DNA of 64,000 nt from Escherichia phage A4, in the sequence record ON286972; one strand, written 5' to 3'. Position 1 is the stretch's first letter, and each line of letters opens with the position of its first letter. The translations under genes were made by a program, and so were the position numbers. Shown here in pieces: positions 19,543-34,884 of this stretch. The notes under the pieces are model-generated. The model was given only the letters and a program-made list of their open reading frames with translations, did not search any database and had not been told where the DNA came from.

Positions 19543-19906
19543 TCTAATAGTACGTATAATGCAAGATGTTCGAAAGAACCTTTATACAGGCAATTTTGAC
19601 GATTCGAACATTAAACTATTATGTTATGATGGTTTTACCTTGGTACATCCATCTGAATCAAATAATATATACATATCATATACTTCCAAAAATCAATTAT
19701 ATCAATTATATCAATTTGATATATATAGCACAATGGCTAAAATAACTTTGGACGTATCCAAGCAGCCTATCCTTATCGCTGTACCAGAATGCAATTACAC
19801 TGAAGAATCACTGTTTCAGTACTCAATGATAAATGACATTGGCGACTTGACATTAGAAGAGATTAACGCTATACTAGATGTATCACGTTTGATTAATGCC
19901 TACTAA
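19535..19906 (+). CDS. FQ-motif paralog family protein
   Basis: ORF track; TEESLFQYSM. Confidence 0.55.
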
Positions 19907-19919
19907 TTTGGAGATTAAT

Positions 19920-20111
19920 ATGTTCTGGAATTTGTTATGTCTTTTTGGTCGTACCTTTGTTCTTGCAATTATCCATACACCAGGTATTCGTAATTTTGTT
20001 TCTTATGAATTTAAGAAAAATTATCACAACAATACTGAAGTTCGTGCCACTAAAATGTGCAAAGACTTCAATGTAACAGTACCACCATTTAAGAAGTACG
20101 AGGATGAATAA
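19920..20111 (+). CDS. small membrane protein (63 aa)
   Basis: Track ORF 19896..20111 trimmed to ATG 19920 after GGAG RBS. Confidence 0.45.
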   Translation: MFWNLLCLFGRTFVLAIIHTPGIRNFVSYEFKKNYHNNTEVRATKMCKDFNVTVPPFKKYEDE

Positions 20112-20389
20112 TGGAATTCATTGTAGCTCCTGAAGAACTCAAGACCTTTAAGTTCAAAGATAATTATACGTATTCAAATCATTCCTTGAATTCAATTCAT
20201 GTAATTGCAATGGTTGCATCTGAATATAAAGATAACCCGTGTATTGATTTTAAAACCACTGATGGTGAATATACATGGGTGATCCCACGAGATAAATATA
20301 GTTATCAAGGGGCAGTAGAAATTCGTGACTCGATTCTAAAACAAATCGAAGATGGACATACTCATCCTAAACTAAACATTCAGTACTGA
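20111..20389 (+). CDS. hypothetical protein (92 aa)
   Basis: ORF track; ATGA overlap. Confidence 0.5.
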   Translation: MEFIVAPEELKTFKFKDNYTYSNHSLNSIHVIAMVASEYKDNPCIDFKTTDGEYTWVIPRDKYSYQGAVEIRDSILKQIEDGHTHPKLNIQY

Positions 20390-20639
20390 AAATGTTATAC
20401 CGATAGCTTCTGGAGCAGTACTGAATCCTCCTTTTTCTTTCAGAAGCTATCACATATTTTGTCGTAAAATGGTACTGTGAGTGGTTTGTCTTTCCATTCT
20501 CTCCAGGTCCAGTACCTATCATTGTAGTTCTGGAGAGATATAACATGTATAATGTTTTTTACCTCCTGTTTATCATTATATATGTCACTAAACGAGTAAT
20601 AACTACCCTCCCTCTAGGTTATTACTTTTGATTTTGGTA

Positions 20640-20668
20640 TTGACTTTCAATGCCGCAAATGTTATACT
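20640..20668 (+). promoter_or_regulatory. sigma70-type promoter
   Basis: TTGACT-N17-TATACT. Confidence 0.5.
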
Positions 20669-20671
20669 TAA

Positions 20672-20700
20672 GGCTGATTCAAATTGAATCGGCCTTTTTT
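20672..20700 (+). terminator. intrinsic terminator-like hairpin between promoter and gene
   Basis: GGCTGATTCAA-AAT-TTGAATCGGCC 10-bp stem then TTTTTTCTTTTT. Confidence 0.45.
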
Positions 20701-20718
20701 CTTTTTAAGGAGAACACC

Positions 20719-21114
20719 ATGAATTTGGTTGTAGAAGACGATATCTTTTCCGATGCTATTGAGTATATGTACAATCTTGTTAGACTTAATGAATTTGTAC
20801 AACGTCATACATTGACACATAAGGATGGGATTATTACTGTTGGTGCATACATTAATGGATACTTAACCGAGTTTTACAATTGTGATAACATTTTTATAAC
20901 CATTGATAACATCACTACGACTAATGACATATCCATTGATTTATTCAAAGATCATATTGAAATTGATATAGACAAGATGATTGCCATCGATATCGATCCT
21001 GTAATGTATGAGTTACAAGAAGAAATGTATGAGCAATTATGCTTTGTGTATGATTTGAGTAAAATTTCATTCTTTGACTTACGCAGAATCTGTTACGTAG
21101 TAGGTAAGTTATGA
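20719..21114 (+). CDS. hypothetical acidic protein (131 aa)
   Basis: Track ORF 20650..21114 trimmed to ATG 20719 after AAGGAG RBS. Confidence 0.5.
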   Translation: MNLVVEDDIFSDAIEYMYNLVRLNEFVQRHTLTHKDGIITVGAYINGYLTEFYNCDNIFITIDNITTTNDISIDLFKDHIEIDIDKMIAIDIDPVMYELQEEMYEQLCFVYDLSKISFFDLRRICYVVGKL

Positions 21115-21584
21115 CAAATATACGTGATGTATTAATGCAGTACGGTATCAGTGCTGAAATGCTTTCAGATGAAATTATTAAAAACTCTAAGATAGAATTT
21201 ATGTTTAATAGACACCGTTATCCAGGTGTTTATATTAATCGATCCTGTTCATTAATTTACTTTGAATACATGGATGAATATGTTATCATTGAAGAAATCA
21301 AACTCAATGGATGGCACTGTACAATTGAGTTAACGAAACCAAGAACCAAGAACAAAATAGTGATTAGTATTAATATCTATTACGATATTAGTACTGAAGA
21401 TGGAGCCTCACACTTTGTTCGAGTTTTGTCATCTGATGATAATTTAAAGTTAGATTATAAATCAGAAGAAGAATACTTTCAGGAAAGTTTAATCAATGAT
21501 TTAGTTTTTGATTATAACTTTTATAAAGAACTATCAAAAAACTTCGTTGAATGTATCAAACTATATGAGGAAGAGGACGAATGA
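21111..21584 (+). CDS. FQ-motif paralog family protein
   Basis: ORF track; SEEEYFQESL. Confidence 0.55.
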   Translation: MTNIRDVLMQYGISAEMLSDEIIKNSKIEFMFNRHRYPGVYINRSCSLIYFEYMDEYVIIEEIKLNGWHCTIELTKPRTKNKIVISINIYYDISTEDGASHFVRVLSSDDNLKLDYKSEEEYFQESLINDLVFDYNFYKELSKNFVECIKLYEEEDE

Positions 21585-22000
21585 AAAATTATAAGTTAAG
21601 TACAGAATACAATGAAATGATCATCAATGCACTTGATAATCATGGTGAGTTTCGTTATCCAGGTGAAGGATTGAACGTTTACTTCGGAGATGAAAACTGG
21701 TGCTATCTGAATAATGGTGTTCTGACTATCCATATTCAGGATATTAAAAGTGATGTATCATTTGGAATTCACCTAGTTCCCGGTACATTGGTTAATGACG
21801 CACGTATCAATGTTATTGTCAATGAGAACGAATTCTTTCATGATGATTTTGAAGATGTTAAAATGGCAGCTAGTAAGTTGTATACTACTGAAGAAGAGTA
21901 CTTTCAGGATAGCACTGTGAAAGATATGCGAATCCCTTATGAGTTGATGGTTTCAGTACAGAAATTTATTGAGGATTTCAGATGCGATTTGATCAAGTAG
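21581..22000 (+). CDS. FQ-motif paralog family protein
   Basis: ORF track; TEEEYFQDST. Confidence 0.55.
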   Translation: MKNYKLSTEYNEMIINALDNHGEFRYPGEGLNVYFGDENWCYLNNGVLTIHIQDIKSDVSFGIHLVPGTLVNDARINVIVNENEFFHDDFEDVKMAASKLYTTEEEYFQDSTVKDMRIPYELMVSVQKFIEDFRCDLIK

Positions 22001-22449
22001 TTAATCGTGAGTACTTGGGTCGTATGGTGGGTGCTGCAATTGACATGATGGTAAAAAAGATGTGCCGTTATCATCCATCACAATGGAATGCTTCATATAG
22101 CATTGAGATATATGCATATAAACTTCATGGGGCTGCAACTTCATTTGAGAAAATTCACTCATTGAGGCTTCACATGTACAGGGGAACCGAACGTACATAC
22201 ACTGTAATTGTGAATTCCGGTGGTGTTACATTACATTTAACACCATTTAATGCTGTTAATTTGGATTTAAGTTCAGTTATTGAGAGCACAGAAATCTGTC
22301 ACATTGAAGTTGGTGCTAATTATCATCCATTAACCGAAGAACAGTACTTCCAGATTCAAACTCTACATGATATCCATGACTTGACATATGAAGAAATTCG
22401 TGATTTAATAAGATTAAGTGCAATGATTCCAAATAAGGGTACAGTGTGA
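21982..22449 (+). CDS. FQ-motif paralog family protein
   Basis: ORF track; TEEQYFQIQT. Confidence 0.55.
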   Translation: MRFDQVVNREYLGRMVGAAIDMMVKKMCRYHPSQWNASYSIEIYAYKLHGAATSFEKIHSLRLHMYRGTERTYTVIVNSGGVTLHLTPFNAVNLDLSSVIESTEICHIEVGANYHPLTEEQYFQIQTLHDIHDLTYEEIRDLIRLSAMIPNKGTV

Positions 22450-22552
22450 ACGACCACATAACTGTCTGATTTGAATGGGTTGACATTTAACCAATGTAAA
22501 AGAATTGTTTCTATATGTAATCGAATTACATATGAGTACACGGAGATATAAA

Positions 22553-22999
22553 ATGGCATTTGGTAACATTGAAGAAGTACAACTAGTATTTGAAAACTGT
22601 GAAGTTCAAAACTTCAAGTTCACTGACATTCTGTACATGTATGTTGGTGATGAATCGCAACGTGCATATCGTTATGCTAATGGTTTGTCAATTGAATCAG
22701 TACTGAAGAAGTTTGCTATTGTCTTTAAGAAAGACACGGAGGCTGATTTTTACAACGGAACTTCATTGGTAGATCGCCTGTCAGAGCGTGATGTTACTCA
22801 TGTTGTGTTCTTCGGTGCAAATGACAAAATGGCATCATATGTCATTGACTGGGGTGAATATGATTCATGTAATATGCAGTACTCAATCAATCAGAGGTTG
22901 CAATTTACACCTGATGGACATATCATCTTCACAAGCAGTACAGAAGATATGATTAAGATTGATGCAGAAGAGATTGATTCTTTTGCGAGGTACATGTAA
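22553..22999 (+). CDS. hypothetical protein (148 aa)
   Basis: Track ORF 22505..22999 trimmed to ATG 22553 after GGAG RBS. Confidence 0.5.
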   Translation: MAFGNIEEVQLVFENCEVQNFKFTDILYMYVGDESQRAYRYANGLSIESVLKKFAIVFKKDTEADFYNGTSLVDRLSERDVTHVVFFGANDKMASYVIDWGEYDSCNMQYSINQRLQFTPDGHIIFTSSTEDMIKIDAEEIDSFARYM

Positions 23000-23463
23000 T
23001 GCGTCCAGTACTGAAAGATATTAAATCCAGGAAATATTTTCCTGGGTTTATGGAGTACATCATTGGGTTAGCTGAATCCAAGACTGGACAGAAAGTTGAT
23101 ATCCAACTCGGTGATGTACTGATTTGTGCAAGATCTTATCGTAATAATTTCATGGACATTTTTGAAAGATCCAATTCGATTCTTGCCTCTCTTGATTTAG
23201 AGGGCTATTTAAATGCTAAATTCGTATTGGATATATACAGTCATGGGTTTTCAATAAGACCTTATAATTCACATTACAATGATGATCCCAAAAACTTCTT
23301 TGTGCATGTAGAAAATGTTGACCAATTCACTGACCTTAGTGATGAAAGTTACTTTCAGATGCAGGTGGCATATGACCTACAGGACTTGACACGTCAAGAA
23401 ATCAATGCTATCCTCTATGTATGTTCTAAATTGAAAGAAAATGAGGTAAGCGGTCGTGTCTAA
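22999..23463 (+). CDS. FQ-motif paralog family protein
   Basis: ORF track; DESYFQMQVA. Confidence 0.55.
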   Translation: MRPVLKDIKSRKYFPGFMEYIIGLAESKTGQKVDIQLGDVLICARSYRNNFMDIFERSNSILASLDLEGYLNAKFVLDIYSHGFSIRPYNSHYNDDPKNFFVHVENVDQFTDLSDESYFQMQVAYDLQDLTRQEINAILYVCSKLKENEVSGRV

Positions 23464-23884
23464 TACAGCAAAGATTAAAGTTCATTTTCGTGACACATGG
23501 AAAGACGTAGATACTGGTAACGTACTAAATGTAGAATACAGTACAGAAACAGTTCATGCCGATGATATGGGAACGGCTAAAGCTCAAGCACAGAAACTGA
23601 AAGAAACCGAAGGTGTTGCCATTTTTGAAGGTGTTGAGCATACTCGTGAATGTATCAATGTAGATGTGATTACTGAAAATGTCACAGTACTATCAAAGGA
23701 ACAGATGTTTGATTTCATTTTAAATCACACTGTATCTATTACACCAGACAACACACTTTGGACCAAAACTGATGGCACAAAGGTACGTAATAAGTACAAA
23801 GTTATAATTGATGGTATTAACTATCAGGGTTATGACCTGGTAGATGCAATAAATGAACATACTAGTAAGAGTAGAGGTTATTGA
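23456..23884 (+). CDS. hypothetical protein (GTG start)
   Basis: ORF track. Confidence 0.5.
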   Translation: MSNTAKIKVHFRDTWKDVDTGNVLNVEYSTETVHADDMGTAKAQAQKLKETEGVAIFEGVEHTRECINVDVITENVTVLSKEQMFDFILNHTVSITPDNTLWTKTDGTKVRNKYKVIIDGINYQGYDLVDAINEHTSKSRGY

Positions 23885-23887
23885 AAA

Positions 23888-24211
23888 ATGTATGCTATAA
23901 TTATCACTGTAATTTGTTGTGCTACTATAATCATCTGCCGTTGTATTGAAAAGAATGCACACATTCGTGGTATGGAAATTGAAAAAGACCTATATACTGA
24001 AAACATAGCAGAAAAGAAACCACAATCTCCATATAAACTTCAGAGAGATATGCATAATGAGTCAAAAACATGGGGTTATTGCATTACTCAAAACGGTAGT
24101 CGTCTAACATCAAGTTCTGGACATTATCAAATCATCCATAACATTGATGAAGCAAAAGAACTTGTTTGGGAACTAGAGGATCTTGGTGGCTATGAAAGAA
24201 CGAAATTTTGA
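23888..24211 (+). CDS. hypothetical protein with N-terminal TM or signal segment
   Basis: ORF track; hydrophobic N-terminus MYAIIITVICCATIIICRC. Confidence 0.45.
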   Translation: MYAIIITVICCATIIICRCIEKNAHIRGMEIEKDLYTENIAEKKPQSPYKLQRDMHNESKTWGYCITQNGSRLTSSSGHYQIIHNIDEAKELVWELEDLGGYERTKF

Positions 24212-24395
24212 AATTTACAAAACAATTCAGGAATTAAACGTAAAGCATGATATAATGCTAGATGTAGACAATAAGATTGCTTACATGAAAAAAGAAACTG
24301 TTTCAATGCTTCAGAGATTTTCACAAAAAGCATTTTTAATGAAGTTCTGTGCAGATGAGCATCTCACGGGACGAAAACTCTATAACGAGGCATAA
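24183..24395 (+). CDS. hypothetical protein (70 aa)
   Basis: ORF track; overlaps upstream gene by 29 nt. Confidence 0.35.
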   Translation: MVAMKERNFEIYKTIQELNVKHDIMLDVDNKIAYMKKETVSMLQRFSQKAFLMKFCADEHLTGRKLYNEA

Positions 24396-24396
24396 T

Positions 24397-24738
24397 ATGG
24401 ATTTAAGCTCAACAATTAATTTTTTGAGTGATAATTACGAAAAGGTCATATCAAGGGGTGGTATTATTATCCACCCTGTAACAAATGAAATGTTCATGGT
24501 TCGCTTTGATGCAAATTCATATGACCAAGTACTTGTAATATCACAATTTATCGATTATAATGAAGTTGTTCAATTTTGCTGTACTGAATTCGGAATCTAT
24601 CTTAAAGATGCGGAAACTAATGAGATTGGTCATTACTTATATCAAACTCTGATGGTTACTCTAGATTTTGGACTTACTTTCGAAAATCTGGTACAATGTC
24701 ACTATATGTTTAAAAACTTTCCCGCGTCTGGGAATTAA
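24397..24738 (+). CDS. hypothetical protein (113 aa)
   Basis: Track ORF 24349..24738 trimmed to ATG 24397 after GAGG RBS. Confidence 0.45.
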   Translation: MDLSSTINFLSDNYEKVISRGGIIIHPVTNEMFMVRFDANSYDQVLVISQFIDYNEVVQFCCTEFGIYLKDAETNEIGHYLYQTLMVTLDFGLTFENLVQCHYMFKNFPASGN

Positions 24739-24748
24739 TGGAGTTCAA

Positions 24749-25591
24749 ATGTCAAACATTATCGTATTCAAAACTGTATCATTCAATAAAGATCTTTATT
24801 CTCATTCTTATGTGTCTTCCAATAATCTCATCATTGAGTTGACAAATGGGGCAACGTTGGCGGTAGAATTCGATTCTAGTATTGAATCTAACGCTGCACT
24901 AAAAGAACTAGCAATGGTATTAAATGGTGAACCAGTAAACAAATCCAAACCAACTGATGGGTTGGATATGTTGGTCAATAAGATCCTAAATGGCAAATCT
25001 TCTGAAATTGTTGAACTTCTTAAAAATTGTACTGATAAAATCACTGAAACTGTTAGTACTGCAAAATCTAAGGCTGAAGATAAGCTTTATGAAGAAGCAT
25101 TTAAAGTCGTGGGGGCCGCAGCAGAATCTAAGTTAAATGGTATGATTAATAATCTTGACCAAGTGCTGTCTCATATGTTCACAAAAGAATATGAAACTGA
25201 AGAACCTGAATCCCAAGAACAACCTTCCAAAAAAGAAGATGTAAAATCTAAAGTGAAATCCGCATTTACTGGTGCTAAAAAGAAATTTGGTCTATCTGAA
25301 GATATCTTTGGATATTCTGATACCACAGCACAAACCGATGATGATTCACAGTCAGATGATATTCTGATTGGTGATATGCTTGATCGCCAGTTGCGTGCTG
25401 AAATTTCAGCATTCGTTGACAGTGTTGTTAGTTCTGAACGTGCACAAGATATGTTCGAAAGTATCAGTAAGAATTTTGGTGAAGAAGAATCGAAAGCTGC
25501 TATTGATGGATTTAAAAATCTAATTTATTCCGTTGCAGTGCAGCACCAAGATAAAACATTAGAATATGTGATTCGCAATTACTTTATGTAA
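24749..25591 (+). CDS. hypothetical acidic protein (280 aa)
   Basis: Track ORF 24668..25591 trimmed to ATG 24749 after GGAG RBS. Confidence 0.5.
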   Translation: MSNIIVFKTVSFNKDLYSHSYVSSNNLIIELTNGATLAVEFDSSIESNAALKELAMVLNGEPVNKSKPTDGLDMLVNKILNGKSSEIVELLKNCTDKITETVSTAKSKAEDKLYEEAFKVVGAAAESKLNGMINNLDQVLSHMFTKEYETEEPESQEQPSKKEDVKSKVKSAFTGAKKKFGLSEDIFGYSDTTAQTDDDSQSDDILIGDMLDRQLRAEISAFVDSVVSSERAQDMFESISKNFGEEESKAAIDGFKNLIYSVAVQHQDKTLEYVIRNYFM

Positions 25592-25602
25592 TGAGAACGA
25601 AA

Positions 25603-25628
25603 AAGCCTCCATATGGAGGCTTTTTTTA
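25603..25628. terminator. bidirectional intrinsic terminator between convergent genes
   Basis: Palindrome AAGCCTCCATATGGAGGCTT flanked by A-run and T-run. Confidence 0.6.
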
Positions 25629-26783
25629 TTGTTTGTCATAACCAATCACTACAATCTTAGCATCAAATGCTTCGACAGAAGTAATTGTAACATTCTCATC
25701 ATCATCAAGCTGAATTTCACATTGAACTGCATCATTGTTAATATCATATACTTGAACAAAAACAAATTCTTTCAAGTGTCCAGTACTGGATATATTAATT
25801 TCATACATTTCACCATTGCGTGTCCATTCAGAAGAAGAGACATTTTGTACATATGGAGATGTTTGTAATGTACTACCCAATATACTTAGTTTTATAGGTG
25901 TATTATCATATATTGTTACTGTAATATCACCAGTGGAGCTAACATTAATGCCAGCAGATACCAAATTATTATGATTATCATATACCTGAATAGCTAAGTT
26001 ATTACCACGCCCATGTACATCACCAGGGATTCTTGCACTATACACATCACCAGGCCCAGTACTGAATGTAGTTACTGATACAGTAGTGGTAAAGCCGTCA
26101 TCATCACCAACATCTAATATATTAAAATTAACGCTTTTTGTATTATAAAAATCAGACGTAAGAGTTATAGTTGCAGTTCCGGTTGACATAATTTCCGGTA
26201 CTGTTATAATGAATTCATCATTGACTATTGTACTCGTTGAATACTCGGACCCATCTGAAAATTTTACAGTAATTGTCATTCCTGTTGTGTTGATGGTTTG
26301 TCCAGCATTGAACAGTTTACCCGATATTTCAGTATCCCCAACATGAACCGGATTAACTAAAATATTATCTATATCACGATCAATAATTGAACAAGTTGGT
26401 GTGTACATATCAAAAGTAACATCGGAGTTTCCAAATATCGTTTTGTGTAATTGGAATTTAGTTACAAACCCTGTTGGATCTGTAGGTTTCAATTGATTAG
26501 TGTATCCACGAACAAAGAAAGTATTCTTTGCAATAACATCCAATAATTCATCATCGGATTTTTTATAGTTAAGTAAATTTCCTACCTTATCATAAGAAGT
26601 AATTTGTACGCGTCTATATATTTTGTTTGTTACAGGATCTATAATATCAAATAGTTTATAACTACGCTGTCTGTAAATTCTTATATTTTTTAATTTGGTT
26701 CCATCGATTAGTAAAGCACCATCCACGATATAACCACATTCACCGAACTTGTATTCTCCGGCATCAGCTATGGTTCTAGACAT
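25626..26783 (-). CDS. hypothetical beta-rich protein (385 aa), possibly Ig-like or virion-associated
   Basis: ORF track; only long minus-strand gene in the central region; Thr/Ser/Val-rich repeated beta-strand-like segments; GAGGGG RBS. Confidence 0.55.
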   Translation of the reverse strand: MSRTIADAGEYKFGECGYIVDGALLIDGTKLKNIRIYRQRSYKLFDIIDPVTNKIYRRVQITSYDKVGNLLNYKKSDDELLDVIAKNTFFVRGYTNQLKPTDPTGFVTKFQLHKTIFGNSDVTFDMYTPTCSIIDRDIDNILVNPVHVGDTEISGKLFNAGQTINTTGMTITVKFSDGSEYSTSTIVNDEFIITVPEIMSTGTATITLTSDFYNTKSVNFNILDVGDDDGFTTTVSVTTFSTGPGDVYSARIPGDVHGRGNNLAIQVYDNHNNLVSAGINVSSTGDITVTIYDNTPIKLSILGSTLQTSPYVQNVSSSEWTRNGEMYEINISSTGHLKEFVFVQVYDINNDAVQCEIQLDDDENVTITSVEAFDAKIVVIGYDKQ

Positions 26784-26848
26784 AAAACAAACCCCTCATT
26801 GTTGAAATGCTTATAAAATATTTATGATAAGGAGGGTGAAAATCGGCC

Positions 26849-26876
26849 TTGACAGACCTGTATTTTTGAGTATAAT
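26849..26876 (+). promoter_or_regulatory. sigma70-type promoter
   Basis: TTGACA-N16-TATAAT. Confidence 0.55.
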
Positions 26877-26904
26877 GTACATTAATAGTGAAAAGGAGTA
26901 TTTT

Positions 26905-27489
26905 ATGAATGTATTAGAAAATCGTTTAATTGTTAAAAATGGCAAGATGACTGTGAAACTATACTCTGATGAAGCAGATTCTTTCATGGCTAAAGCAATC
27001 GAAAAGTCTGAGCGATATCAAGTTCTTGCACCTGAAAACAAATCACCTTATGGGTTTAATCACGCTCATAGTCATTTTGTTGGAATGGTTTGTGAACACG
27101 CATCGTTTGTATTGTTCTCTGAAATTGAAGCCAGTACTGGTATTAAGTTAAACATTGATCCAGCATTCCAATGTGATGGACGTGATGGTGAATGTGACAT
27201 TAAAGTAAATGGGTTGCGTATAGAAGTAAAAGGTATTAAGTATAAATCATGGAAAGACTTTGGTCCATGTGTCAGTACTCGACAATTGAAAAACATTCAG
27301 AAAAAAGCTGATGTTATTCTGTGGGTCTTGTATAATGAGAAAAAACAAGAATTTACGTTTGAGGGATTCAATTACGTAAAAGACATTAGTTCGATTCCAG
27401 TAGTATTAACAGGTGTACCAGGTCGTCCATTAATTGAGAATCACCCAGTTATTAGTATTCTTAAGCCACTACAGGAGCTACCACTATGA
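26905..27489 (+). CDS. hypothetical protein, possible PD-(D/E)xK nuclease fold
   Basis: Track ORF 26824..27489 trimmed to ATG 26905 after AAGGAG; DGRDGECDIKV...IEVKG resembles a D...(D/E)xK core. Confidence 0.5.
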   Translation: MNVLENRLIVKNGKMTVKLYSDEADSFMAKAIEKSERYQVLAPENKSPYGFNHAHSHFVGMVCEHASFVLFSEIEASTGIKLNIDPAFQCDGRDGECDIKVNGLRIEVKGIKYKSWKDFGPCVSTRQLKNIQKKADVILWVLYNEKKQEFTFEGFNYVKDISSIPVVLTGVPGRPLIENHPVISILKPLQELPL

Positions 27490-27725
27490 TTAAATGTAAT
27501 ATTGAAGTAAATGAATACACTACTAATCAATATAACGGTGAGAAAGAGTTTTCATTTAGTACAGTACAACATGTATTGAATTTCCCAGTACTTCCATCTA
27601 TTGGTTCAGTACTGACAATCACAAATACGTATGATACCCAGTACGAGATCCTTGATATTGAGTACAGAGCAAATCTTAGTTCCAGTGCAGATGTTGAAAT
27701 CTATATCATCGTAGAAGAGGTATAA
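27486..27725 (+). CDS. hypothetical protein (79 aa)
   Basis: ORF track; ATGA overlap. Confidence 0.45.
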   Translation: MIKCNIEVNEYTTNQYNGEKEFSFSTVQHVLNFPVLPSIGSVLTITNTYDTQYEILDIEYRANLSSSADVEIYIIVEEV

Positions 27726-28051
27726 TGATGTTCAAGAACTTCATTGCTATAGTAGCAGTACTATTCTTAACTACGTGCTTCATCAATCCAGTTTATGCTG
27801 ATAAAGTGCGATGGAAGGATGTTAAATCACCATCCTATTGTGCTGGTTATGCTAAGGTAAAGGATGAACAACACAATAAGCAGTACTATAAGGATATGTT
27901 TTCATTTTACAATTCTATGATTTCAGAAACTGACTTGATGGCAAAGAGAGTTGATCGTGAAGATTTCCTTCAAGGCTATGACATGAATGATGATGAAAAA
28001 ACATTAGAATGCGTAGAAGTTTTTAATTACATACGAGGGTTTGATGAATGA
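27725..28051 (+). CDS. secreted hypothetical protein (signal peptide)
   Basis: ORF track; N-terminus MMFKNFIAIVAVLFLTTCFINPVYA. Confidence 0.5.
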   Translation: MMFKNFIAIVAVLFLTTCFINPVYADKVRWKDVKSPSYCAGYAKVKDEQHNKQYYKDMFSFYNSMISETDLMAKRVDREDFLQGYDMNDDEKTLECVEVFNYIRGFDE

Positions 28052-28512
28052 CAGCACTGATATGTATTAGTCTATTTGTTATTGTATATCAATTGATTTT
28101 TTCTATCATTGATGATGTTGAACATATTGCATATAGTAAATCTATATCTAAGTTTGAGGGCAATCTTGCTTTTTTTAAATCATTATTTTGGACATATTTG
28201 TTACCAAAAGAATTTTTAGTTGTGTCTTCATATTATTCATCATATAATCTAAACTATAGTATTAGTGATTTAGCAAACATTGAACTGGTTTGTCGAAATG
28301 CTATCAACAATGTTAATGGATACAAAGTTGTGATGAAAAATCCAGGGGTGATCCATTTTATAGAACCAGGTAACAGCAGTTCTGAACTAAAACTTAGTGA
28401 TATGTATCTTTCATATAACTCAATGGAAAGATTCGTTTTACCACCGTACTATATTCGTTTGATCCTAAAAGCACTACAAAATAAAACTACAGATGTTCTT
28501 GACAGGCTATAG
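28048..28512 (+). CDS. membrane-anchored hypothetical protein
   Basis: ORF track; N-terminal TM helix. Confidence 0.5.
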   Translation: MTALICISLFVIVYQLIFSIIDDVEHIAYSKSISKFEGNLAFFKSLFWTYLLPKEFLVVSSYYSSYNLNYSISDLANIELVCRNAINNVNGYKVVMKNPGVIHFIEPGNSSSELKLSDMYLSYNSMERFVLPPYYIRLILKALQNKTTDVLDRL

Positions 28513-28576
28513 GTGAAGTGATAAGATAGTACCAATGAAACACAACACTAATTTATAATCTAATGAGGAACCAACC

Positions 28577-29035
28577 ATGACAGTATTAGCTACCCAATTT
28601 AAACGAAATACAGAGCAACGTGAAGGTTACTTGAGTATCAGTGAAGTGGTTGAAGGAAACTTCAAACAGTACATTTTCAATGCTTCTATTAAATTAAAAG
28701 CGACAAAATCTGATAAAGATCGTGGCTTTACTAAGTGGGTGGCTTACTGGGAAGATTCACCTGTTGCAATTGAAATGACAGTAATGACAACAGTACTGGA
28801 AACTGGATACATTAAAGCGACCATTGTAGATAAACAAGTACGAACCATTGATGAGATTGGTCCTTACCCAGCACGAAATTCTAAAGTATTTGGTAACTTG
28901 ATTGATGGTAAGTTTATGTTGGATAAAGATGCACAAGTTTATGTGATGGATAAGGTAGAAAAAGCGGCAGCTAAAAAAGAAGTTGTAAATCAAAGTCAAA
29001 TTGACTTAATCAAACAAGCATGGGGTTTAAAATGA
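28577..29035 (+). CDS. hypothetical protein (152 aa)
   Basis: ORF track; GAGGAA RBS. Confidence 0.5.
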   Translation: MTVLATQFKRNTEQREGYLSISEVVEGNFKQYIFNASIKLKATKSDKDRGFTKWVAYWEDSPVAIEMTVMTTVLETGYIKATIVDKQVRTIDEIGPYPARNSKVFGNLIDGKFMLDKDAQVYVMDKVEKAAAKKEVVNQSQIDLIKQAWGLK

Positions 29036-29475
29036 TTTCTATCAAATCCGTAAAATACATTTATCTTCTTGGTATTTTGTCTTGGTTTGCATTACCAGTA
29101 CTGGACTTCTTTCAAGTCACAGATGATAACAAGTACCAAACAGTAGTTTCAGTGTTTTCACTTTTATTTTTTCTTGGTGTCTTTTTTTCTAGTGCTTTTA
29201 TGATCTTTAGTGATGAAGACGATGCAAGACGTTTCTATGCAGTAGTTTTTGAATTTAAACACTATGGGTGGTATCTAACACTCCCGTTCATTCCATGTAT
29301 CATTTATGCTTTCAACTATGAATACTATTCATATATGGGCATGGCAATGATTTTGTTTATTATCCTTGAACGTATGCGAACGGTTCAAAACAAGTTTGCA
29401 CAGGAGTACGAAGACATGCAAACTGCGGAAGAGATACGTAGGAAGTCAATTCCAACAACAAAGGTAGATTTATAA
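29020..29475 (+). CDS. integral membrane protein (start may be ATG 29032)
   Basis: ORF track; several hydrophobic helices. Confidence 0.5.
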   Translation: MGFKMISIKSVKYIYLLGILSWFALPVLDFFQVTDDNKYQTVVSVFSLLFFLGVFFSSAFMIFSDEDDARRFYAVVFEFKHYGWYLTLPFIPCIIYAFNYEYYSYMGMAMILFIILERMRTVQNKFAQEYEDMQTAEEIRRKSIPTTKVDL

Positions 29476-29900
29476 TGAGAACATACTATAAACTATTACT
29501 CGCTCCCTTTTCATTTGGTATTTTATGTCTAATCGACGTATTATGCACAAAGTATTCGATTAGTACAGTACTTAATCCAGCTTGGTTTACTATTGCTATT
29601 GTTGGATACTGCCTGTGTGCGGGTATGGCTGCTCTTATTACGTTACTAACAATTGCAATGGATAATGACGAGAAAGATAAAAACAGCTTTGCGAATGACT
29701 TTGGGTGGAAAACGATCAGTTCAGTAACTATTGTACCATTTGCATTACTGACAGTTTATTTCATTCAAATGGGTGAGATCATTCCTGGTGTTGCATCATC
29801 AATACTTTTGTTAATGACAATAGTTGTTCGTTCACGACAAAATTCAATAATCCAAGAGTTTCTTGAACGAGAGGCAAGGGAAGGAACAAAAACATCTTGA
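29475..29900 (+). CDS. integral membrane protein
   Basis: ORF track; several hydrophobic helices. Confidence 0.5.
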   Translation: MRTYYKLLLAPFSFGILCLIDVLCTKYSISTVLNPAWFTIAIVGYCLCAGMAALITLLTIAMDNDEKDKNSFANDFGWKTISSVTIVPFALLTVYFIQMGEIIPGVASSILLLMTIVVRSRQNSIIQEFLEREAREGTKTS

Positions 29901-29926
29901 CATAAAATGTGTTAAGGGATATAATT
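29898..29926 (+). promoter_or_regulatory. sigma70-type promoter
   Basis: TTGACA-N17-TATAAT; -35 overlaps the TGA stop of the upstream gene. Confidence 0.55.
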
Positions 29927-29954
29927 ATTTTATCAAAACAAAGGAGGGACACAT

Positions 29955-30206
29955 ATGAATCTCGAGGTGGTGAAATCATTAACTGAAGCTTTACAGAAAA
30001 ATGAAGTCCAATGTCAAGAACTACGTGACACTATTAAGGTTGAATACGCACGACTCCAAGGTATGCTTCAAGAATCAGAATGGGTAGTTACTAAAAGCAT
30101 CGAAGGTATCTACAAAGATATCGAATCAATGTTCAATAAGAAAAGTAAGATTGAATCAGATTCTTTTAACAAACGTAAAGAACTAAATGCAGTTTTAGGT
30201 ATCTAA
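29955..30206 (+). CDS. hypothetical protein (83 aa)
   Basis: ORF track; AAGGAGG RBS. Confidence 0.5.
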   Translation: MNLEVVKSLTEALQKNEVQCQELRDTIKVEYARLQGMLQESEWVVTKSIEGIYKDIESMFNKKSKIESDSFNKRKELNAVLGI

Positions 30207-30210
30207 GTAC

Positions 30211-30239
30211 TTGACAGTACTGAAATATAGGAGTACAAT
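30211..30239 (+). promoter_or_regulatory. sigma70-type promoter
   Basis: TTGACA-N17-TACAAT. Confidence 0.5.
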
Positions 30240-30279
30240 GTACTCCTACTTTAATTGAAAACCAAAAAGGAAAAACACA

Positions 30280-30555
30280 ATGAACTCTATTCTAGTAGCA
30301 GTAAACCTGGTTGCTTCTCCGTCTTTTGATTTTAAAAAAGTTATTTCTAATAATCTTAAAAACATTTGCCCTGATACTGAACTTACTTTTTGTGTATTCG
30401 ATTCTGAAAAAGTTACTAAAGTAGATCTTAATTATCTCATGAACGATGTTAAGAGTGTTCAAGGTAAAACTAATTTAGATGTAGTACGTTCTGTTGCTGA
30501 CGACTACGATGATGCTCTGATCATTTCTGAATCTTTTGAAGAGGGTGTACTGTGA
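30280..30555 (+). CDS. hypothetical protein (91 aa)
   Basis: ORF track; AAAGGAAA RBS-like. Confidence 0.5.
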   Translation: MNSILVAVNLVASPSFDFKKVISNNLKNICPDTELTFCVFDSEKVTKVDLNYLMNDVKSVQGKTNLDVVRSVADDYDDALIISESFEEGVL

Positions 30556-31019
30556 ATAAATTAGTTCAATGGGTAGAAAAAACTAAGGTCTATCCACCGT
30601 CTGAATTGTTTTTCCAAGCAGACTCTAAGCAAGCCAAGGCAGAAAAACGCGTTGTAGCCATTTGTGAAGACCTTTATAAACTTGAAGTACATACTCTTAG
30701 TGATATGCATACTGCGTTCACAGTGCTTGCCAACGCAGCTAAACGCGATATTCATAACATGAAGATGAAGTACATTGAAGAACTATGCGGTGTGCTTGCA
30801 TTCCATGTTGAATATTCGGTTAATGCATTAGATGCTATGCATAAGAAAGATCCCATCCTCCAAGCTTATTACAAAGGATGGTCAGTAAAAGCTAAAGAGC
30901 TAAAGGATGAAATCAAAGCATTACTTATTGAATCATTCCCTGATATTGATAAGGCAATGTTACTTTCGGAGATGCAGTACTATTATGATTCTGAAAAAGA
31001 TAAGGTACTTTCTAAGTAA
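30552..31019 (+). CDS. hypothetical protein (155 aa)
   Basis: ORF track; GTG start, ATGA-type overlap. Confidence 0.5.
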   Translation: MNKLVQWVEKTKVYPPSELFFQADSKQAKAEKRVVAICEDLYKLEVHTLSDMHTAFTVLANAAKRDIHNMKMKYIEELCGVLAFHVEYSVNALDAMHKKDPILQAYYKGWSVKAKELKDEIKALLIESFPDIDKAMLLSEMQYYYDSEKDKVLSK

Positions 31020-31416
31020 ACTAATTCTAAGTAAGCCCAAAGTACAAATACAAGCTCAAGAGGCTTTTGATATATACGAGGCATTGAATAATTGTAATTA
31101 TGATTTACTCAATAAGCATTGTAGATCCAAAGTAGCTGTTGATTTGATATGTGAACAAATGGCAGTTAGTAACTTTTCAAAAAATTACAACATTCACTAT
31201 TTTGGATTTGATGGTTCACCTACAAAATTTGATTATAATTATGCTTATGCAGAATTGGTTAAGAGTAAGGAAAACATCAAAATAACTGAATTCATTGCCT
31301 TGTATTTTTTCACAAAACTTGGTATAGTAACTGGATGTAAAGATCCCTTCCCATTTGATAAGGTATTGAAAGGAAGAGAACTTGATATATATTCCGCATT
31401 CTTAGATAAGGTGTAG
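30985..31416 (+). CDS. hypothetical protein (start uncertain)
   Basis: Track ORF 30907..31416; first plausible in-frame ATG 30985 still overlaps upstream gene by 35 nt. Confidence 0.35.
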   Translation: MILKKIRYFLSKLILSKPKVQIQAQEAFDIYEALNNCNYDLLNKHCRSKVAVDLICEQMAVSNFSKNYNIHYFGFDGSPTKFDYNYAYAELVKSKENIKITEFIALYFFTKLGIVTGCKDPFPFDKVLKGRELDIYSAFLDKV

Positions 31417-31417
31417 A

Positions 31418-31915
31418 ATGACTACAGTATATGTTGACAAGCGTGTTGGATTATTGCTCACTGATTCACGAGTAACAACCACTACTGAGAGGTACTTTCT
31501 CGGATTATTCCCGTTAAAACCAAAAAAACAATATGGTGTAGTTACTCAAAAATCATTATACATTCATGATCGTCTGTTTAGTGCCGCAGGTTCAGTGAAT
31601 GAAATCAATAAAGTCTTGATGTATTTGATATATGGTGATATAGTACTGCCCAGTAGAAAAGAGAACTGCCATTGTGTCTTGTTGTCCAAAGATTATTGTA
31701 TTCACTTAGGAACAAAGAACGGGAAGTTTTTTAAGTACCTTGAGTTCATGCATGAGGAATATGTGTTCTTCATGGGGAGTGGTGGAGAGTACATGGTTGA
31801 TGCTGCTGTGCATGAGAACCAAGACACACTACTTCAAAAAATATTCAGTACTTTCAAAGAGGTAAAAAACCACGATGAATATACTGACGACAATATTAAT
31901 GTATACCAATTTTGA
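31418..31915 (+). CDS. hypothetical protein (165 aa)
   Basis: ORF track. Confidence 0.5.
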   Translation: MTTVYVDKRVGLLLTDSRVTTTTERYFLGLFPLKPKKQYGVVTQKSLYIHDRLFSAAGSVNEINKVLMYLIYGDIVLPSRKENCHCVLLSKDYCIHLGTKNGKFFKYLEFMHEEYVFFMGSGGEYMVDAAVHENQDTLLQKIFSTFKEVKNHDEYTDDNINVYQF

Positions 31916-31936
31916 TTTTTTCATTAGGAGAAGTAA

Positions 31937-32899
31937 GTGAAGAAACTAGACTTAAACGCAATTTCCGAAGAAGTACTGGATGAATGTTTTGCGAATGAAG
32001 AAGTCAATCCATTGGAAGCAATTGAACCATCAGAAGTTATTGAAGATGATATTCCACATAAAGTTCGTAGTAAAAGTAACATTAGTCTCAAGCGTCCAGT
32101 AGGTGTGACTAATGAATCCATCATCGAAGAGATTCGTGCTGGAATTAATGTAAAAAAGAACACTGACCTATTACTTCGTTATAACTATGGTATGATCGTT
32201 GATGTTGCTTCAAAGTGTACATGTTATATTCCGTTTGAAGATAAAATTGCATATGGTGTAGAAGGTTTTATGCGAGCACTTAAAACCTTTGATCTTAGTA
32301 AGAATGTCAAATTCATTACATATGCAACAACGTCCGTTTATATGACTATGTATAATGAAAGTTCAGATGCAAATTACATGGTGTACTTACCACGTTATAT
32401 GAGCGTTCATAACATCCAAGTACGTCGATTTAATGAATCATATCAACGTGAACACGGTAAGCGACCTACACCAGAATTAATCTCTGAGAGTACTGGTATC
32501 GAGCTTCAGCACGTTAAGAACTGTTTGTTATACCAGAATGCATATACGACTCTTGATGCACAACTGGGTTCAGATTCAGACGGAACCCTTGGGGATATTC
32601 TGAGTTCATCTGCTCGTGATTATAACCTTAATGTTGATAGCATTTGTAATCCATTACGTTATGCAATCACAGAAATCATTGACGAATTGAGTACTAAAGA
32701 ACGAGAAATTATCATGCGTGTTCATGGTCTTGGGGATTACAAAGCAGAAACCCTTCGTGAAATTTCTGATAATGGATATGTTGATGATAAAGGAAACATT
32801 GTTAAGTCCCGTTCATCTGTGCACCGAAAATATAGTGAAGCTATTCAAAAGCTTAAAAAAATAGTACTTGAAAAAGGGTACGAATACGAAGATTTCTAA
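31937..32899 (+). CDS. phage-encoded sigma70-family RNA polymerase sigma factor
   Basis: GTG start after AGGAG; region-2-like LLLRYNYGMIVDVA...FMRALKTFD...KFITYATTSVYM and region-4-like LSTKEREIIMRVHGL...TLREIS...SRSSVHRKYSEAIQKLKK. Confidence 0.75.
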   Translation: MKKLDLNAISEEVLDECFANEEVNPLEAIEPSEVIEDDIPHKVRSKSNISLKRPVGVTNESIIEEIRAGINVKKNTDLLLRYNYGMIVDVASKCTCYIPFEDKIAYGVEGFMRALKTFDLSKNVKFITYATTSVYMTMYNESSDANYMVYLPRYMSVHNIQVRRFNESYQREHGKRPTPELISESTGIELQHVKNCLLYQNAYTTLDAQLGSDSDGTLGDILSSSARDYNLNVDSICNPLRYAITEIIDELSTKEREIIMRVHGLGDYKAETLREISDNGYVDDKGNIVKSRSSVHRKYSEAIQKLKKIVLEKGYEYEDF

Positions 32900-32906
32900 A
32901 GAAAAA

Positions 32907-32934
32907 GGGTTGACTTAGGTCAGCCCTTTTTTTA
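32907..32934 (+). terminator. intrinsic terminator (GGGTTGAC-TTAG-GTCAGCCC hairpin)
   Basis: Same hairpin family as the downstream terminator/promoter cassettes, followed by TTTTTTT, no good -10. Confidence 0.6.
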
Positions 32935-33457
32935 TGGGACAAAATGGATGTTCATGATACAATGATATTGTACAATTCTGTTGGCATGGATGACATGAAC
33001 CTGATCCACTCGAAAATGTAGAGGGCAGTTGAGCAGTCCAGCAGTGCGAAGTGCAGAAGAAACCCGTCAGATGTGGGCATATTATGAACCCCTCACGGCA
33101 ATGCGGCACTATAAAGAACCACGTTAGGATGGCTGGTGGTTCCTCGATAGACATATAAGGATAACACCTTACGAATTATCTAAGGGAGAGTTATCAAATT
33201 TTGTACAGGAAAGTTGCGTCCAAAATTTGAGTACTCACATTAAGTATTTGATTGCATAGATACTTAATGAAGATACACTATGTTTAAAAGTGTAGACCGT
33301 CATATGAAACTGAAGTAGAGAGAAACAGGATGACCCGCTTTCGTACTCATTAAGAGTAATCTTCAATGCAATAGCTCTGATACCATCAGCGTCAAATTCC
33401 CCTCCCAGCGGGGGGAAGAAAAATCCCTTCCTCAAATCCCGTCAATATTAAAAGTCC

Positions 33458-33486
33458 TTGACAGTTATTAATCATTCGCGTAGAAT
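33458..33486 (+). promoter_or_regulatory. sigma70-type promoter
   Basis: TTGACA-N17-TAGAAT. Confidence 0.5.
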
Positions 33487-33550
33487 ACGTAGTATTAGAA
33501 GCGAACAGACATCTCGAAGAGATGGATGACTAACTATTAAGGAACATTCA

Positions 33551-33760
33551 ATGAATACTACAATCTTTTTAATTGTTGCTCTTTCAATGCAATCCGGTGT
33601 ACAAATTACCCCTATGAATTCATTAAACCAATGTTTTTCTGTACGTGATAGTACATACGAACAAGTAAACAAAAATTCTTGGATGACAGTTAGTGAAGAA
33701 CAAATGTGGTGTTACAAAAGTGATATTAAAGCGAAATTTATTGTAGGACAAACTCAATGA
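33551..33760 (+). CDS. small secreted or membrane protein (69 aa)
   Basis: ORF track; hydrophobic N-terminus; AAGGAA RBS. Confidence 0.45.
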   Translation: MNTTIFLIVALSMQSGVQITPMNSLNQCFSVRDSTYEQVNKNSWMTVSEEQMWCYKSDIKAKFIVGQTQ

Positions 33761-33951
33761 TTTATCGAGTGAGGTTTGAAGTTTGTAAAATTGTTTTCAA
33801 TAGCAAAGGTGAAGCCTCACTAGATGAAACTATGCACATATATAATCTCCAATTTAGGGCAAAAACAGAAGCTGATGCATTAGTAAACATGTTTAATTTC
33901 AACCATAGGTGCGGGTATCATTTAGTAAGAGTTATAGAGGTTAAAAAGTAA
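33757..33951 (+). CDS. hypothetical protein (64 aa)
   Basis: ORF track; ATGA overlap. Confidence 0.45.
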   Translation: MIYRVRFEVCKIVFNSKGEASLDETMHIYNLQFRAKTEADALVNMFNFNHRCGYHLVRVIEVKK

Positions 33952-33981
33952 TCACCGAATGCAGTGAAGAGGAAATCTAAA

Positions 33982-34245
33982 ATGAGTACTATCAATGCAT
34001 TCAAGCACTTAGACAAAGGTATCAAACACTTTGATGTTGAATGTTTAAATTCAGGTATGAATCGTTTAGTACAAATTTACATGAAATCGTTTATAGGTAT
34101 TGACAGTGCACGACTACCAGTATATAATTACTTTATTGAAAGCGTAGAAGGTGAATCACTTCGTGATTATGGTGAAAGATTTAATAAGAAAGTTTTCACT
34201 GCAATAGCAAATGAGATTCATTACTATAAACCCTATGTAATTTAA
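33982..34245 (+). CDS. hypothetical protein (87 aa)
   Basis: Track ORF 33964..34245 trimmed to ATG 33982 after AGAGGAAA. Confidence 0.45.
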   Translation: MSTINAFKHLDKGIKHFDVECLNSGMNRLVQIYMKSFIGIDSARLPVYNYFIESVEGESLRDYGERFNKKVFTAIANEIHYYKPYVI

Positions 34246-34259
34246 TTAGAGGAACTATC

Positions 34260-34427
34260 ATGCAAATCATTATCTTAATCGTTGGTATCGGTTTGGGCAT
34301 CTATGGACATTCATGGGTAACTGAGAAGTTTCCTGACACCCGTCCAGATTACTGTACAACTAAAACAGAAAGTACTGAAAGTATTGGAACTAAGATCGAT
34401 AAAGTAATCGAGGTGATTAAACAATGA
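34260..34427 (+). CDS. small membrane protein (55 aa)
   Basis: Not in track; AGAGGAA RBS; hydrophobic MQIIILIVGIGLGIYG; followed by two 26-27 aa hydrophobic micro-ORFs at 34424..34504 and 34727..34810. Confidence 0.35.
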   Translation: MQIIILIVGIGLGIYGHSWVTEKFPDTRPDYCTTKTESTESIGTKIDKVIEVIKQ

Positions 34428-34515
34428 TGAAACTTAATATATTTCTGGTTGTATTCACTGTCGTTGTTATCGGTATTGGTGCACTGGCATATATCCAACC
34501 TTAAAGGAAAAATAA

Positions 34516-34840: not shown

Positions 34841-34884
34841 GTTTATATCAACGACACCCACTTTAACAAATAATAGGAAATATT

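What the first reader, a model, noticed from the sequence alone, without database searches (positions are those of the whole stretch)
26905..27489. Possible PD-(D/E)xK nuclease downstream of a consensus promoter
The segment FQCDGRDGECDIKVNGLRIEVKGIKY has the D...(E)CD...EVK spacing reminiscent of restriction-endonuclease-like catalytic cores, preceded by a His-rich region (HAHSHFVGMVCEH). This is weak, motif-level evidence only.
Basis: inference. Interest (0 to 1): 0.35.

Follow-up and report, generated by a model that had tools for sequence, protein, structure and literature searches.

The report
Early jumbo-phage PD-(D/E)xK nuclease gene

Summary
The ORF at 26905..27489 (+, 194 aa) is real. 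It has an AAGGAG ribosome-binding site and a perfect sigma-70 promoter (TTGACA-16-TATAAT, 26849..26876), and dN/dS against orthologues is 0.06-0.075. The window is the early-gene region of a divergent RaK2/121Q-like jumbo phage. The gene appears to be in every phage of that clade in the collection, at the same position, and is better conserved than the phage sigma factor nearby. It matches PHROG 16175 (unknown function) and no Pfam, NCBIfam, PADLOC or PDB sequence.

It is a stand-alone, probably Mg-dependent endonuclease made early in infection. I think a DNA-directed role in host takeover is most likely, and a Hjc-like branched-DNA role is the main rival. A homing endonuclease, a classical restriction-modification pair, a nuclease-inhibitor pair and a zinc site were tested and not supported. 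Novelty is modest: a new member of a known kind.

The parts
26849..26876 (+). Sigma-70-type early promoter: TTGACA (26849..26854), 16-nt spacer, TATAAT (26871..26876). The -10 element ends 28 nt before the ATG.
   Evidence: 12/12 consensus match. A promoter of 10-12/12 sits at the same distance upstream of the orthologues in fEgEco12, RaK2 and GAP32. It is one of 37 near-consensus promoters in the window, all on the + strand.
26893..26898 (+). Ribosome-binding site AAGGAG, 6 nt upstream of the start codon.
   Evidence: Read directly from the sequence.
26905..27489 (+). Coding sequence for a 194-aa (22 kDa, pI 7.7) stand-alone PD-(D/E)xK-fold nuclease, PHROG 16175.
27058..27096 (+). Motif I at the start of helix 1: N52-x4-H57-x2-G60-x3-E64 (NHAHSHFVGMVCE). 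E64 is the helix-1 acidic residue of the active site. The distant subfamily has GxxGE here, as in Hjc/YraN.
   Evidence: Across 100 relatives: N52 91%, H57 93%, G60 99%, E64 96%. Helix 54-78 in the model. E64 aligns with the GDAWE glutamate of YraN in hhalign.
27196..27198 (+). D98, the 'D' of PD-(D/E)xK, at the N-terminal edge of strand 2 (ECD-IKV).
   Evidence: 99% conserved. Strand 99-101 in the model. Aligns with the EIDLI aspartate of YraN.
27223..27231 (+). E107-V108-K109, the '(D/E)xK' of the active site, in strand 3 (RIEVKG).
   Evidence: E 81% plus D 16%, V 88%, K 97%. Strand 104-112 in the model. Aligns with VEVR of YraN.
27250..27324 (+). Family-specific conserved block after strand 3: W116, G120, C122, Q127 (on helix 125-134), K134-A-D136 and W140 at the start of strand 137-144.
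   Evidence: W116 92%, G120 97%, C122 82%, Q127 95%, K134 81%, D136 75%, W140 92%. Secondary structure. The role of these residues is not established.
27486..27725 (+). Downstream 79-aa, very acidic (pI 4.1) ORF whose ATG overlaps the nuclease stop codon (ATGA). It is co-transcribed and probably translationally coupled. It is lineage-restricted, so it is not an obligate partner.
   Evidence: ORF list; PHROG 24428, unknown function; pI. Homologues follow the nuclease in fEgEco12 and RaK2 but not in GAP32 or XaC1.

Best explanation
The gene encodes a small stand-alone PD-(D/E)xK (restriction-endonuclease-fold) nuclease. It belongs to an uncharacterised, mainly viral family whose core most resembles the Hjc / YraN / I-Ssp6803I group.

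Shown here:
- The ORF is real and under strong purifying selection.
- It sits behind a perfect host-type sigma-70 promoter, inside a 50-kb block of + strand early promoters.
- It appears to be present in every RaK2/121Q-like jumbo phage in the collection, at the same position.
- The predicted fold is PD-(D/E)xK, with E64 (helix 1), D98 (strand 2) and E107-x-K109 (strand 3) near-invariant.

Inferred:
- D98, E107 and E64 bind one or two Mg2+ ions, and K109 positions the attacking water, giving hydrolytic cleavage of phosphodiester bonds as in other enzymes of this fold.
- Host RNA polymerase transcribes the gene in the first minutes of infection.
- The enzyme acts on DNA as part of host takeover, by cutting the host chromosome or other non-phage DNA. 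The phage genome would be spared by its own methylation or by substrate specificity.

I put about 0.85 on the fold and enzymatic class. The biological target is a best guess at about 0.4. The confidence below is for the whole statement.
For: Gene reality: translation, promoter and RBS; dN/dS 0.06-0.075.

Family: PHROG 16175, full length, E 6e-114. 71 phage records carry it. The nearby phage sigma factor is found in 70 records with the same genus breakdown. The nuclease is 52-89% identical across the clade, against 33-74% for the sigma factor.

Active site: conservation table over 100 relatives.

Early expression: 37 near-consensus sigma-70 promoters, all on the + strand. The promoter is conserved in position in fEgEco12, RaK2 and GAP32. 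The CBB paper places RpoD-like promoters and presumed early host-takeover genes in the equivalent region around the sigma factor (PMC5259590).

Not injected with the virion: the phAPEC6 virion proteome lists the two neighbouring gene products, gp077 and gp078c, but not the orthologue gp076c.

Possible self-protection: these phages encode DNA methyltransferases and RaK2 DNA is methylated (PMC3622015; PMC11895373). A C5-methyltransferase gene lies at 4647..6545 in this window.

A separate junction resolvase exists: RaK2 and CBB encode an endonuclease VII homologue.
Confidence: 0.6

Rival explanations
1. It is a structure-specific nuclease, like the Hjc junction resolvase or a fork- or flap-processing enzyme, serving the phage's own recombination-dependent replication rather than attacking host DNA.
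Against: RaK2 and CBB already encode an endonuclease VII homologue and gp46/47. The gene lies in the early small-ORF block, not in the replication and recombination module. No Pfam Hjc hit appears even at E <= 10. It could not be checked whether the example cited by Iyer et al. (APU01428.1) belongs to this family, because no supplement is held.
Confidence: 0.2
2. It is a sequence-specific, restriction-like endonuclease paired in trans with a phage DNA methyltransferase. It would cut unmethylated or differently methylated host or competitor-phage DNA at defined sites.
Against: No methyltransferase lies next to the gene in the window, fEgEco12, RaK2, GAP32 or XaC1. The nearest one in the window is 20 kb away. 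The other sampled contexts have no methyltransferase next to the gene; in L011 two methylases lie 3-6 kb upstream. At 194 aa there is no obvious separate recognition domain.
Confidence: 0.1
3. It is an RNA-directed nuclease of the PD-(D/E)xK fold, which would degrade host transcripts or process RNA early in infection.
Against: The best matches are all DNA enzymes. Nothing in the sequence or context points to RNA.
Confidence: 0.06
4. It is a free-standing homing endonuclease, a selfish mobile gene like the top structural match I-Ssp6803I.
Against: It appears to be in every clade member, at a fixed position about 4-7 kb upstream of the sigma factor. It is more conserved than that sigma factor, with dN/dS 0.06-0.075. 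Homing endonuclease genes are typically sporadic and decay quickly (own knowledge).
Confidence: 0.03

Closest known systems
Archaeal Holliday-junction resolvase Hjc/Hje (PDB 1gef, 2wcw, 1ob8, 1hh1) and the bacterial YraN/UPF0102 family (PF02021)
   Different: There is no Pfam Hjc or UPF0102 match for the query. The protein is 60-70 residues longer. It has a clade-specific N-terminal beta-hairpin plus helix (residues 8-41) and a conserved C-terminal beta region (T169-G170, N179). It also has family-specific N52/H57, W116, G120, C122, Q127 and K134-A-D136. Junction specificity and dimerisation are untested.
I-Ssp6803I (PDB 2ost), a PD-(D/E)xK homing endonuclease from a cyanobacterial tRNA intron
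   Different: Sequence identity is only 13%. The phage gene is not intron-encoded or sporadic; it is a fixed, syntenic core gene of its clade.
D212 of Sulfolobus spindle-shaped virus (PDB 2w8m) and other small viral PD-(D/E)xK nucleases of unknown role
   Different: No detectable sequence relationship.
Phage nucleases expressed before the late genes that attack host DNA: T7 endonuclease I (gp3, PD-(D/E)xK) and T4 endonucleases II and IV (own knowledge)
   Same: This is the proposed way of working: a small phage nuclease made before late genes that cuts DNA. T7 gp3 shares the fold class.
   Different: No homology was shown here. T4 spares its own DNA through hydroxymethylcytosine, which RaK2-like phages lack (PMC3622015). 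Host-DNA breakdown by RaK2-like phages has not been shown in the papers read.
PHROG 16175 and GenBank/UniRef orthologues (fEgEco12 g508 'putative endonuclease', RaK2 ORF234, 121Q gene 156, GAP32_476, XaC1_541)
   Same: These are true orthologues, full length, 52-89% identical, in the same genomic position.
   Different: They have no assigned function. Apart from the fEgEco12 record and one UniRef cluster named 'Endonuclease', the records and sources seen call them hypothetical or uncharacterised proteins. The window's copy is a new allele from a phage about 73% identical in DNA to its nearest relatives.

Membership tests
PD-(D/E)xK (restriction-endonuclease-like) superfamily | Alpha-beta-beta-beta-alpha-beta core fold | tested here: met
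PD-(D/E)xK (restriction-endonuclease-like) superfamily | Aspartate at strand 2 and (D/E)-x-K in strand 3, usually with an acidic residue on helix 1 | tested here: met
   D98 99%, E/D107 97%, K109 97% and E64 96% conserved over 100 relatives. They lie on strand 99-101, strand 104-112 and helix 54-78 of the model.
PD-(D/E)xK (restriction-endonuclease-like) superfamily | Divalent-metal-dependent phosphodiester hydrolysis | not testable with these tools
   Needs purified protein and D98A/E107A/K109A controls.
Hjc archaeal Holliday-junction resolvase family | Sequence membership (match to the Pfam Hjc model) | tested here: not met
Hjc archaeal Holliday-junction resolvase family | Homodimer that cuts four-way junctions symmetrically | not testable with these tools
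   No multimer modelling or assay was available.
YraN / UPF0102 (PF02021) | Match to the family profile | tested here: inconclusive
   The query has no hit. Two of 100 relatives hit at E about 0.002, and curated cut-offs were not reported for that scan. hhalign against a shallow YraN alignment gives probability 17%, E 0.0015, with catalytic motifs in register.
Homing endonucleases (I-Ssp6803I-like) | Mobile: sporadic presence or absence among close relatives, or a location inside an intron or intein | tested here: not met
   71 records carry it, against 70 for the sigma factor, with the same genus breakdown. The position is fixed. dN/dS is 0.06-0.075.
Type II restriction-modification system | Cognate DNA methyltransferase gene adjacent to the nuclease gene | tested here: not met
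   No adjacent methyltransferase in the window or in fEgEco12, RaK2, GAP32 or XaC1. Only one sampled distant context has one directly adjacent (L008); L011 has two methylases 3-6 kb upstream.
Cas4 / RecB-like nucleases | Four-cysteine Fe-S cluster and RecB motifs | tested here: not met
   Only C122 is broadly conserved (82%). C97 is 47% and position 63 is glycine in 92% of relatives. No PDDEXK_1 or Cas4 Pfam hit.
PHROG 16175 | Full-length profile match | tested here: met
   E 6.3e-114, residues 1-194 on profile positions 1-194 of 194. The family has no annotated function.

The most novel reading that the evidence does not exclude
The protein could be the prototype of a widespread, so far uncurated virus-specific clade of PD-(D/E)xK nucleases. 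The clade has 214 clusters at 50% identity and is found in jumbo phages, in smaller freshwater and marine phages, and on a contig with archaeal- or eukaryote-type genes. It carries its own signature: N-x4-H-x2-G-x2-G-E ... D ... E-V-K-T-W ... W-x3-G-R-C ... Q ... K-A-D. In RaK2-like phages it would be a core early weapon that cuts host or rival DNA while the phage's own methylated genome is spared. That would be a trans-acting 'restriction without a linked methylase' strategy.
Probability: 0.15. Interest if true: 0.5.

Novelty: new member of a known kind. Interest (0 to 1): 0.27.

Why it matters
Most genes of RaK2/121Q-like jumbo phages have no assigned function; 83% of phAPEC6 gene products are of unknown function. 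Here a clade-wide early gene, better conserved than the phage sigma factor nearby, gets a confident fold and enzyme-class assignment. It also gets a precise list of residues to mutate. If the enzyme attacks host DNA, it would explain part of how these phages, some considered for therapy, supply the nucleotides for a burst that needs several host-genome equivalents of DNA (the Sharanji authors' speculation). If it is a resolvase, it adds a second junction nuclease to their replication toolkit. Either way it defines an uncurated viral PD-(D/E)xK family that annotation pipelines currently call 'hypothetical protein'. It does not reveal a new kind of system.

Tried and rejected
1. Zinc site. H55, H57, C97 and C122 are invariant in the RaK2 clade, which suggested a Cys2His2 site. 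Across the wider family H55 is 11% and C97 47% conserved, so I rejected it. The model's coordinates could not be inspected.

2. Nuclease plus inhibitor or immunity pair. The downstream 79-aa ORF overlaps the stop codon and has pI 4.1. Homologues follow the nuclease only in the Escherichia and Klebsiella lineages. GAP32 and XaC1 have unrelated genes there, and pEa_SNUABM_50 has only a doubtful relative. The freshwater lineage has an unrelated small ORF. I rejected it as an obligate partner.

3. Restriction-modification pair. There is no adjacent methyltransferase in the phages, and only one of the sampled distant contexts has one directly adjacent.

4. Homing endonuclease. Rejected on distribution and selection.

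5. Virion-delivered nuclease. The orthologue gp076c is absent from the phAPEC6 virion proteome, while both upstream neighbours are present.

6. Sequence searches that found nothing useful: Pfam, NCBIfam and PADLOC; PDB by sequence with the single protein and with two profiles, giving only chance-level hits; megablast against phages.

7. Tools that failed. It returned 60 loci, all true family members but mostly from one freshwater lineage.

8. Literature. No paper was found that characterises this protein. The fEgEco12 paper does not discuss g508. Iyer et al. 2021 mention a 'novel REase family' in group 2 jumbo phages, but I could not establish whether their example is this family.

Full report
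**What is in the sequence.** AAGGAG lies 6 nt upstream of the ATG. A perfect TTGACA-16-TATAAT promoter lies at 26849..26876. The mechanical ORF list offers an earlier start at 26824. That start is upstream of the promoter, and none of 30 aligned homologues extends that far. Against its orthologues in phages fEgEco12 and phAPEC6 the gene has dS of 1.0-1.5 and dN of 0.075-0.087, so dN/dS is 0.06-0.075.

**Where the window comes from.** The window is AT-rich (31-38% G+C). The protein has full-length orthologues in 71 phage records. All but one (a Vibrio record that I did not examine) are ~310-390-kb jumbo phages of the RaK2 / 121Q / GAP32 / CBB group, plus one 22-kb partial Klebsiella phage record. 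Their hosts are Escherichia, Klebsiella, Salmonella, Erwinia, Yersinia, Xanthomonas and others. The best identity is 89% at the protein level and about 73% at the DNA level over the surrounding 4 kb. Megablast finds nothing. The window is therefore from a divergent, unsequenced relative of the 121Q-like coliphages.

Synteny is conserved. In fEgEco12, RaK2 and XaC1 the gene lies about 3.5-4.6 kb upstream of the phage RpoD-like sigma factor, and about 7 kb upstream in GAP32. In the window the sigma factor is at 31937..32899.

**Early-gene setting.** A scan of the whole window finds 37 promoters matching TTGACA-N16-18-TATAAT at 11 or 12 of 12 positions. All are on the + strand and none on the - strand. 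This fits the description of the equivalent region of phage CBB as the presumed early, host-takeover block driven by RpoD-like promoters (PMC5259590). A consensus-like promoter sits at the same distance upstream of the orthologue in fEgEco12 (10/12), RaK2 (12/12, just after a terminator hairpin) and GAP32 (11/12). One is not evident in the Xanthomonas phage XaC1. Early transcription by host RNA polymerase is thus well supported by sequence, but it is not shown by expression data.

**Distribution.** The nearby sigma factor is found in 70 phage records with the same genus breakdown as the 71 records carrying the nuclease gene. The gene therefore appears to be a core gene of the clade. It is also better conserved than the sigma factor. 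It is 52% identical to the Xanthomonas phage XaC1 copy, against about 33% for sigma. Against the closest coliphages it is 89% identical, against 74% for sigma.

An exhaustive profile search of 1.84 billion cluster representatives finds 214 relatives at E <= 0.001. Most are about 160-200 residues long. They come almost entirely from metagenomes, and the contexts sampled were mainly viral:
- a 135-kb marine phage-like contig;
- a contig with TBP and DNA polymerase epsilon subunit B genes;
- a 60-locus freshwater viral lineage, where the gene lies between a CHAP peptidoglycan hydrolase and glycosyltransferase and epimerase genes.

The BFVD library of viral structures holds 47 matches at E <= 0.001, nearly all unnamed.

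**What the protein is.** It matches PHROG 16175, which has no annotated function (E 6e-114). It matches nothing in Pfam, NCBIfam or PADLOC, even at E <= 10. By sequence it matches nothing credible in the PDB.

- the restriction enzymes DpnI, NhoI, Eco15I and ThaI.

Foldseek against the PDB is not significant (best E 0.024), but it lists mostly the same class of enzyme.

The model's elements place the conserved residues where the fold requires them. E64 is on helix 54-78, D98 is at the edge of strand 99-101, and E107-V-K109 is in strand 104-112. Over 100 diverse relatives these positions are 96%, 99%, 97% (E or D) and 97% conserved.

Some distant relatives give weak Pfam hits to UPF0102/YraN, DUF4420 (a putative PD-(D/E)xK family) and NERD. 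A profile-profile comparison with E. coli YraN and its relatives aligns all three motifs in register. The statistics are weak (probability 17%, E 0.0015), partly because the YraN alignment is shallow.

The specific residues it named (D98, E107, K109) are the right ones.

**Family-specific features.** Beyond the generic motifs, the family has near-invariant N52, H57 and G60 before the helix-1 glutamate. It also has W116, G120, C122, Q127, K134-A-D136, W140, G154, T169-G170 and N179. The first ~45 residues, a beta-hairpin and a helix, are specific to the jumbo-phage clade.

**How it most likely works.** By analogy with every characterised enzyme of this fold, D98, E107 and E64 would hold one or two Mg2+ ions and K109 would position the nucleophilic water. 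The result is hydrolysis of a phosphodiester bond. This step is inference. For the biological role, the evidence narrows the field but does not settle it.

- *Homing endonuclease.* Unlikely, given apparently universal presence, fixed position and strong purifying selection.
- *Classical restriction-modification pair.* Not supported. No methyltransferase is adjacent in any of the phages, and only one of the sampled distant contexts has one directly adjacent.
- *Virion-borne nuclease.* Unlikely. The phAPEC6 virion proteome contains the products of both upstream neighbours but not this protein.
- *Hjc-like resolvase.* This is the main rival. However, these phages already encode an endonuclease VII homologue and gp46/47, and the gene is not in the replication module.
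- *Early DNA endonuclease for host takeover.* I favour this reading, with the enzyme cutting host or other non-phage DNA. The reasons are the dedicated consensus early promoter, the location among host-takeover genes, and the presence of phage methyltransferases that could mark self DNA. Against it, no paper read here reports host-DNA breakdown for these phages, and fEgEco12 DNA is cut normally by ten restriction enzymes.
- *RNA target.* This cannot be excluded.

**Ideas tested and dropped.** A Cys2His2 zinc site fails on family-wide conservation. A nuclease-inhibitor pair with the overlapping downstream acidic 79-aa ORF fails because that ORF is confined to the Escherichia and Klebsiella lineages.

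**Novelty and verdict.** The enzyme class is well known. Orthologues are already in public databases. One GenBank record calls its copy a 'putative endonuclease' and a UniRef cluster is named 'Endonuclease'. A comparative study has noted unnamed REase-fold families in this group of jumbo phages (PMC7824862). The family itself is uncurated and uncharacterised, and no paper found here describes it.

I rate it a new member of a known kind, with modest interest. The useful outputs are a confident fold assignment, the residue list for mutagenesis, and the finding that this is a clade-wide early gene rather than a mobile element.

Noticed in passing
window 1..54200 (+ strand): There are 37 sigma-70-type promoters matching TTGACA-N16-18-TATAAT at 11 or 12 of 12 positions. 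All are on the + strand and none on the - strand. Nine are perfect, starting at 26183, 26849, 29897, 34100, 34813, 38934, 39185, 42531 and 46403. This marks the window as a dense early-gene block read by host RNA polymerase.
   Followed up: partly
window 26183..26210 (+): A perfect TTGACA-16-TATAAT promoter with a TG extension lies inside, and antisense to, the minus-strand virion-structural-protein gene 25626..26783. It could drive an antisense or read-through early transcript. This is unexplained.
   Followed up: no
window 25599..25626: A 12-bp G+C-rich hairpin flanked by A and T runs acts as a bidirectional terminator. It lies between the convergent genes 24668..25591 (+) and 25626..26783 (-). 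Orthologues of both genes are virion proteins in phAPEC6 (gp078c and gp077), so late structural genes are embedded in the early region.
   Followed up: partly
window 4647..6545 (+): This 632-aa ORF is a C5-cytosine DNA methyltransferase (PF00145; residues 4-79 and about 424-630). It is interrupted by an intein with Hint (residues 77-133) and LAGLIDADG (residues 294-360) domains.
   Followed up: partly
window 48934..50631 (+): This 565-aa ORF matches the PHROG endonuclease and HNH-endonuclease families (phrog_681, phrog_559) but has no Pfam hit. It may be a large free-standing homing-type nuclease in the early region.
   Followed up: no
window 54745..63170 (-): Four of the five large minus-strand ORFs here, the ones scanned, are paralogous RCC1-repeat proteins (phrog_4219, 'regulator of chromosome condensation'). 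The coding strand and the sign of the GC skew both switch at about 54 kb, which marks the end of the early block.
   Followed up: partly
window 27486..27725 (+): A 79-aa, very acidic (pI 4.1) ORF has its ATG overlapping the nuclease stop codon (ATGA). It matches PHROG 24428 (unknown function). It is conserved after the nuclease in fEgEco12 and RaK2 but not in GAP32 or XaC1.
   Followed up: yes
loci L014-L073 (IMG/VR freshwater viral contigs): A distant subfamily of the nuclease has conserved motifs GHYxN..SH..GKLGE, RIEVKTW, GRCVA and KAD. It sits in a conserved block: CHAP hydrolase, small ORF, nuclease, an ~85-92-aa ORF (in about half of the loci), glycosyltransferase, NAD-epimerase. That small downstream ORF is unrelated to the one in the window.
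   Followed up: partly
locus L013 (protein P0228, 936 aa): One relative of the nuclease is part of a 936-aa protein that also carries family-B DNA polymerase exonuclease and polymerase domains. It could be a fusion or an insertion. Three other relatives of 625-654 aa end in a weak PcrA/UvrD tudor-like match.
   Followed up: no
locus L011 (ENA contig k141_1749968, 51 kb): A family member lies on a contig that encodes a TATA-binding protein, DNA polymerase epsilon subunit B, Dam and C5 methylases and an Fpg glycosylase. That means an archaeal or eukaryote-type virus or genome, so the family reaches beyond tailed phages of bacteria.
   Followed up: no
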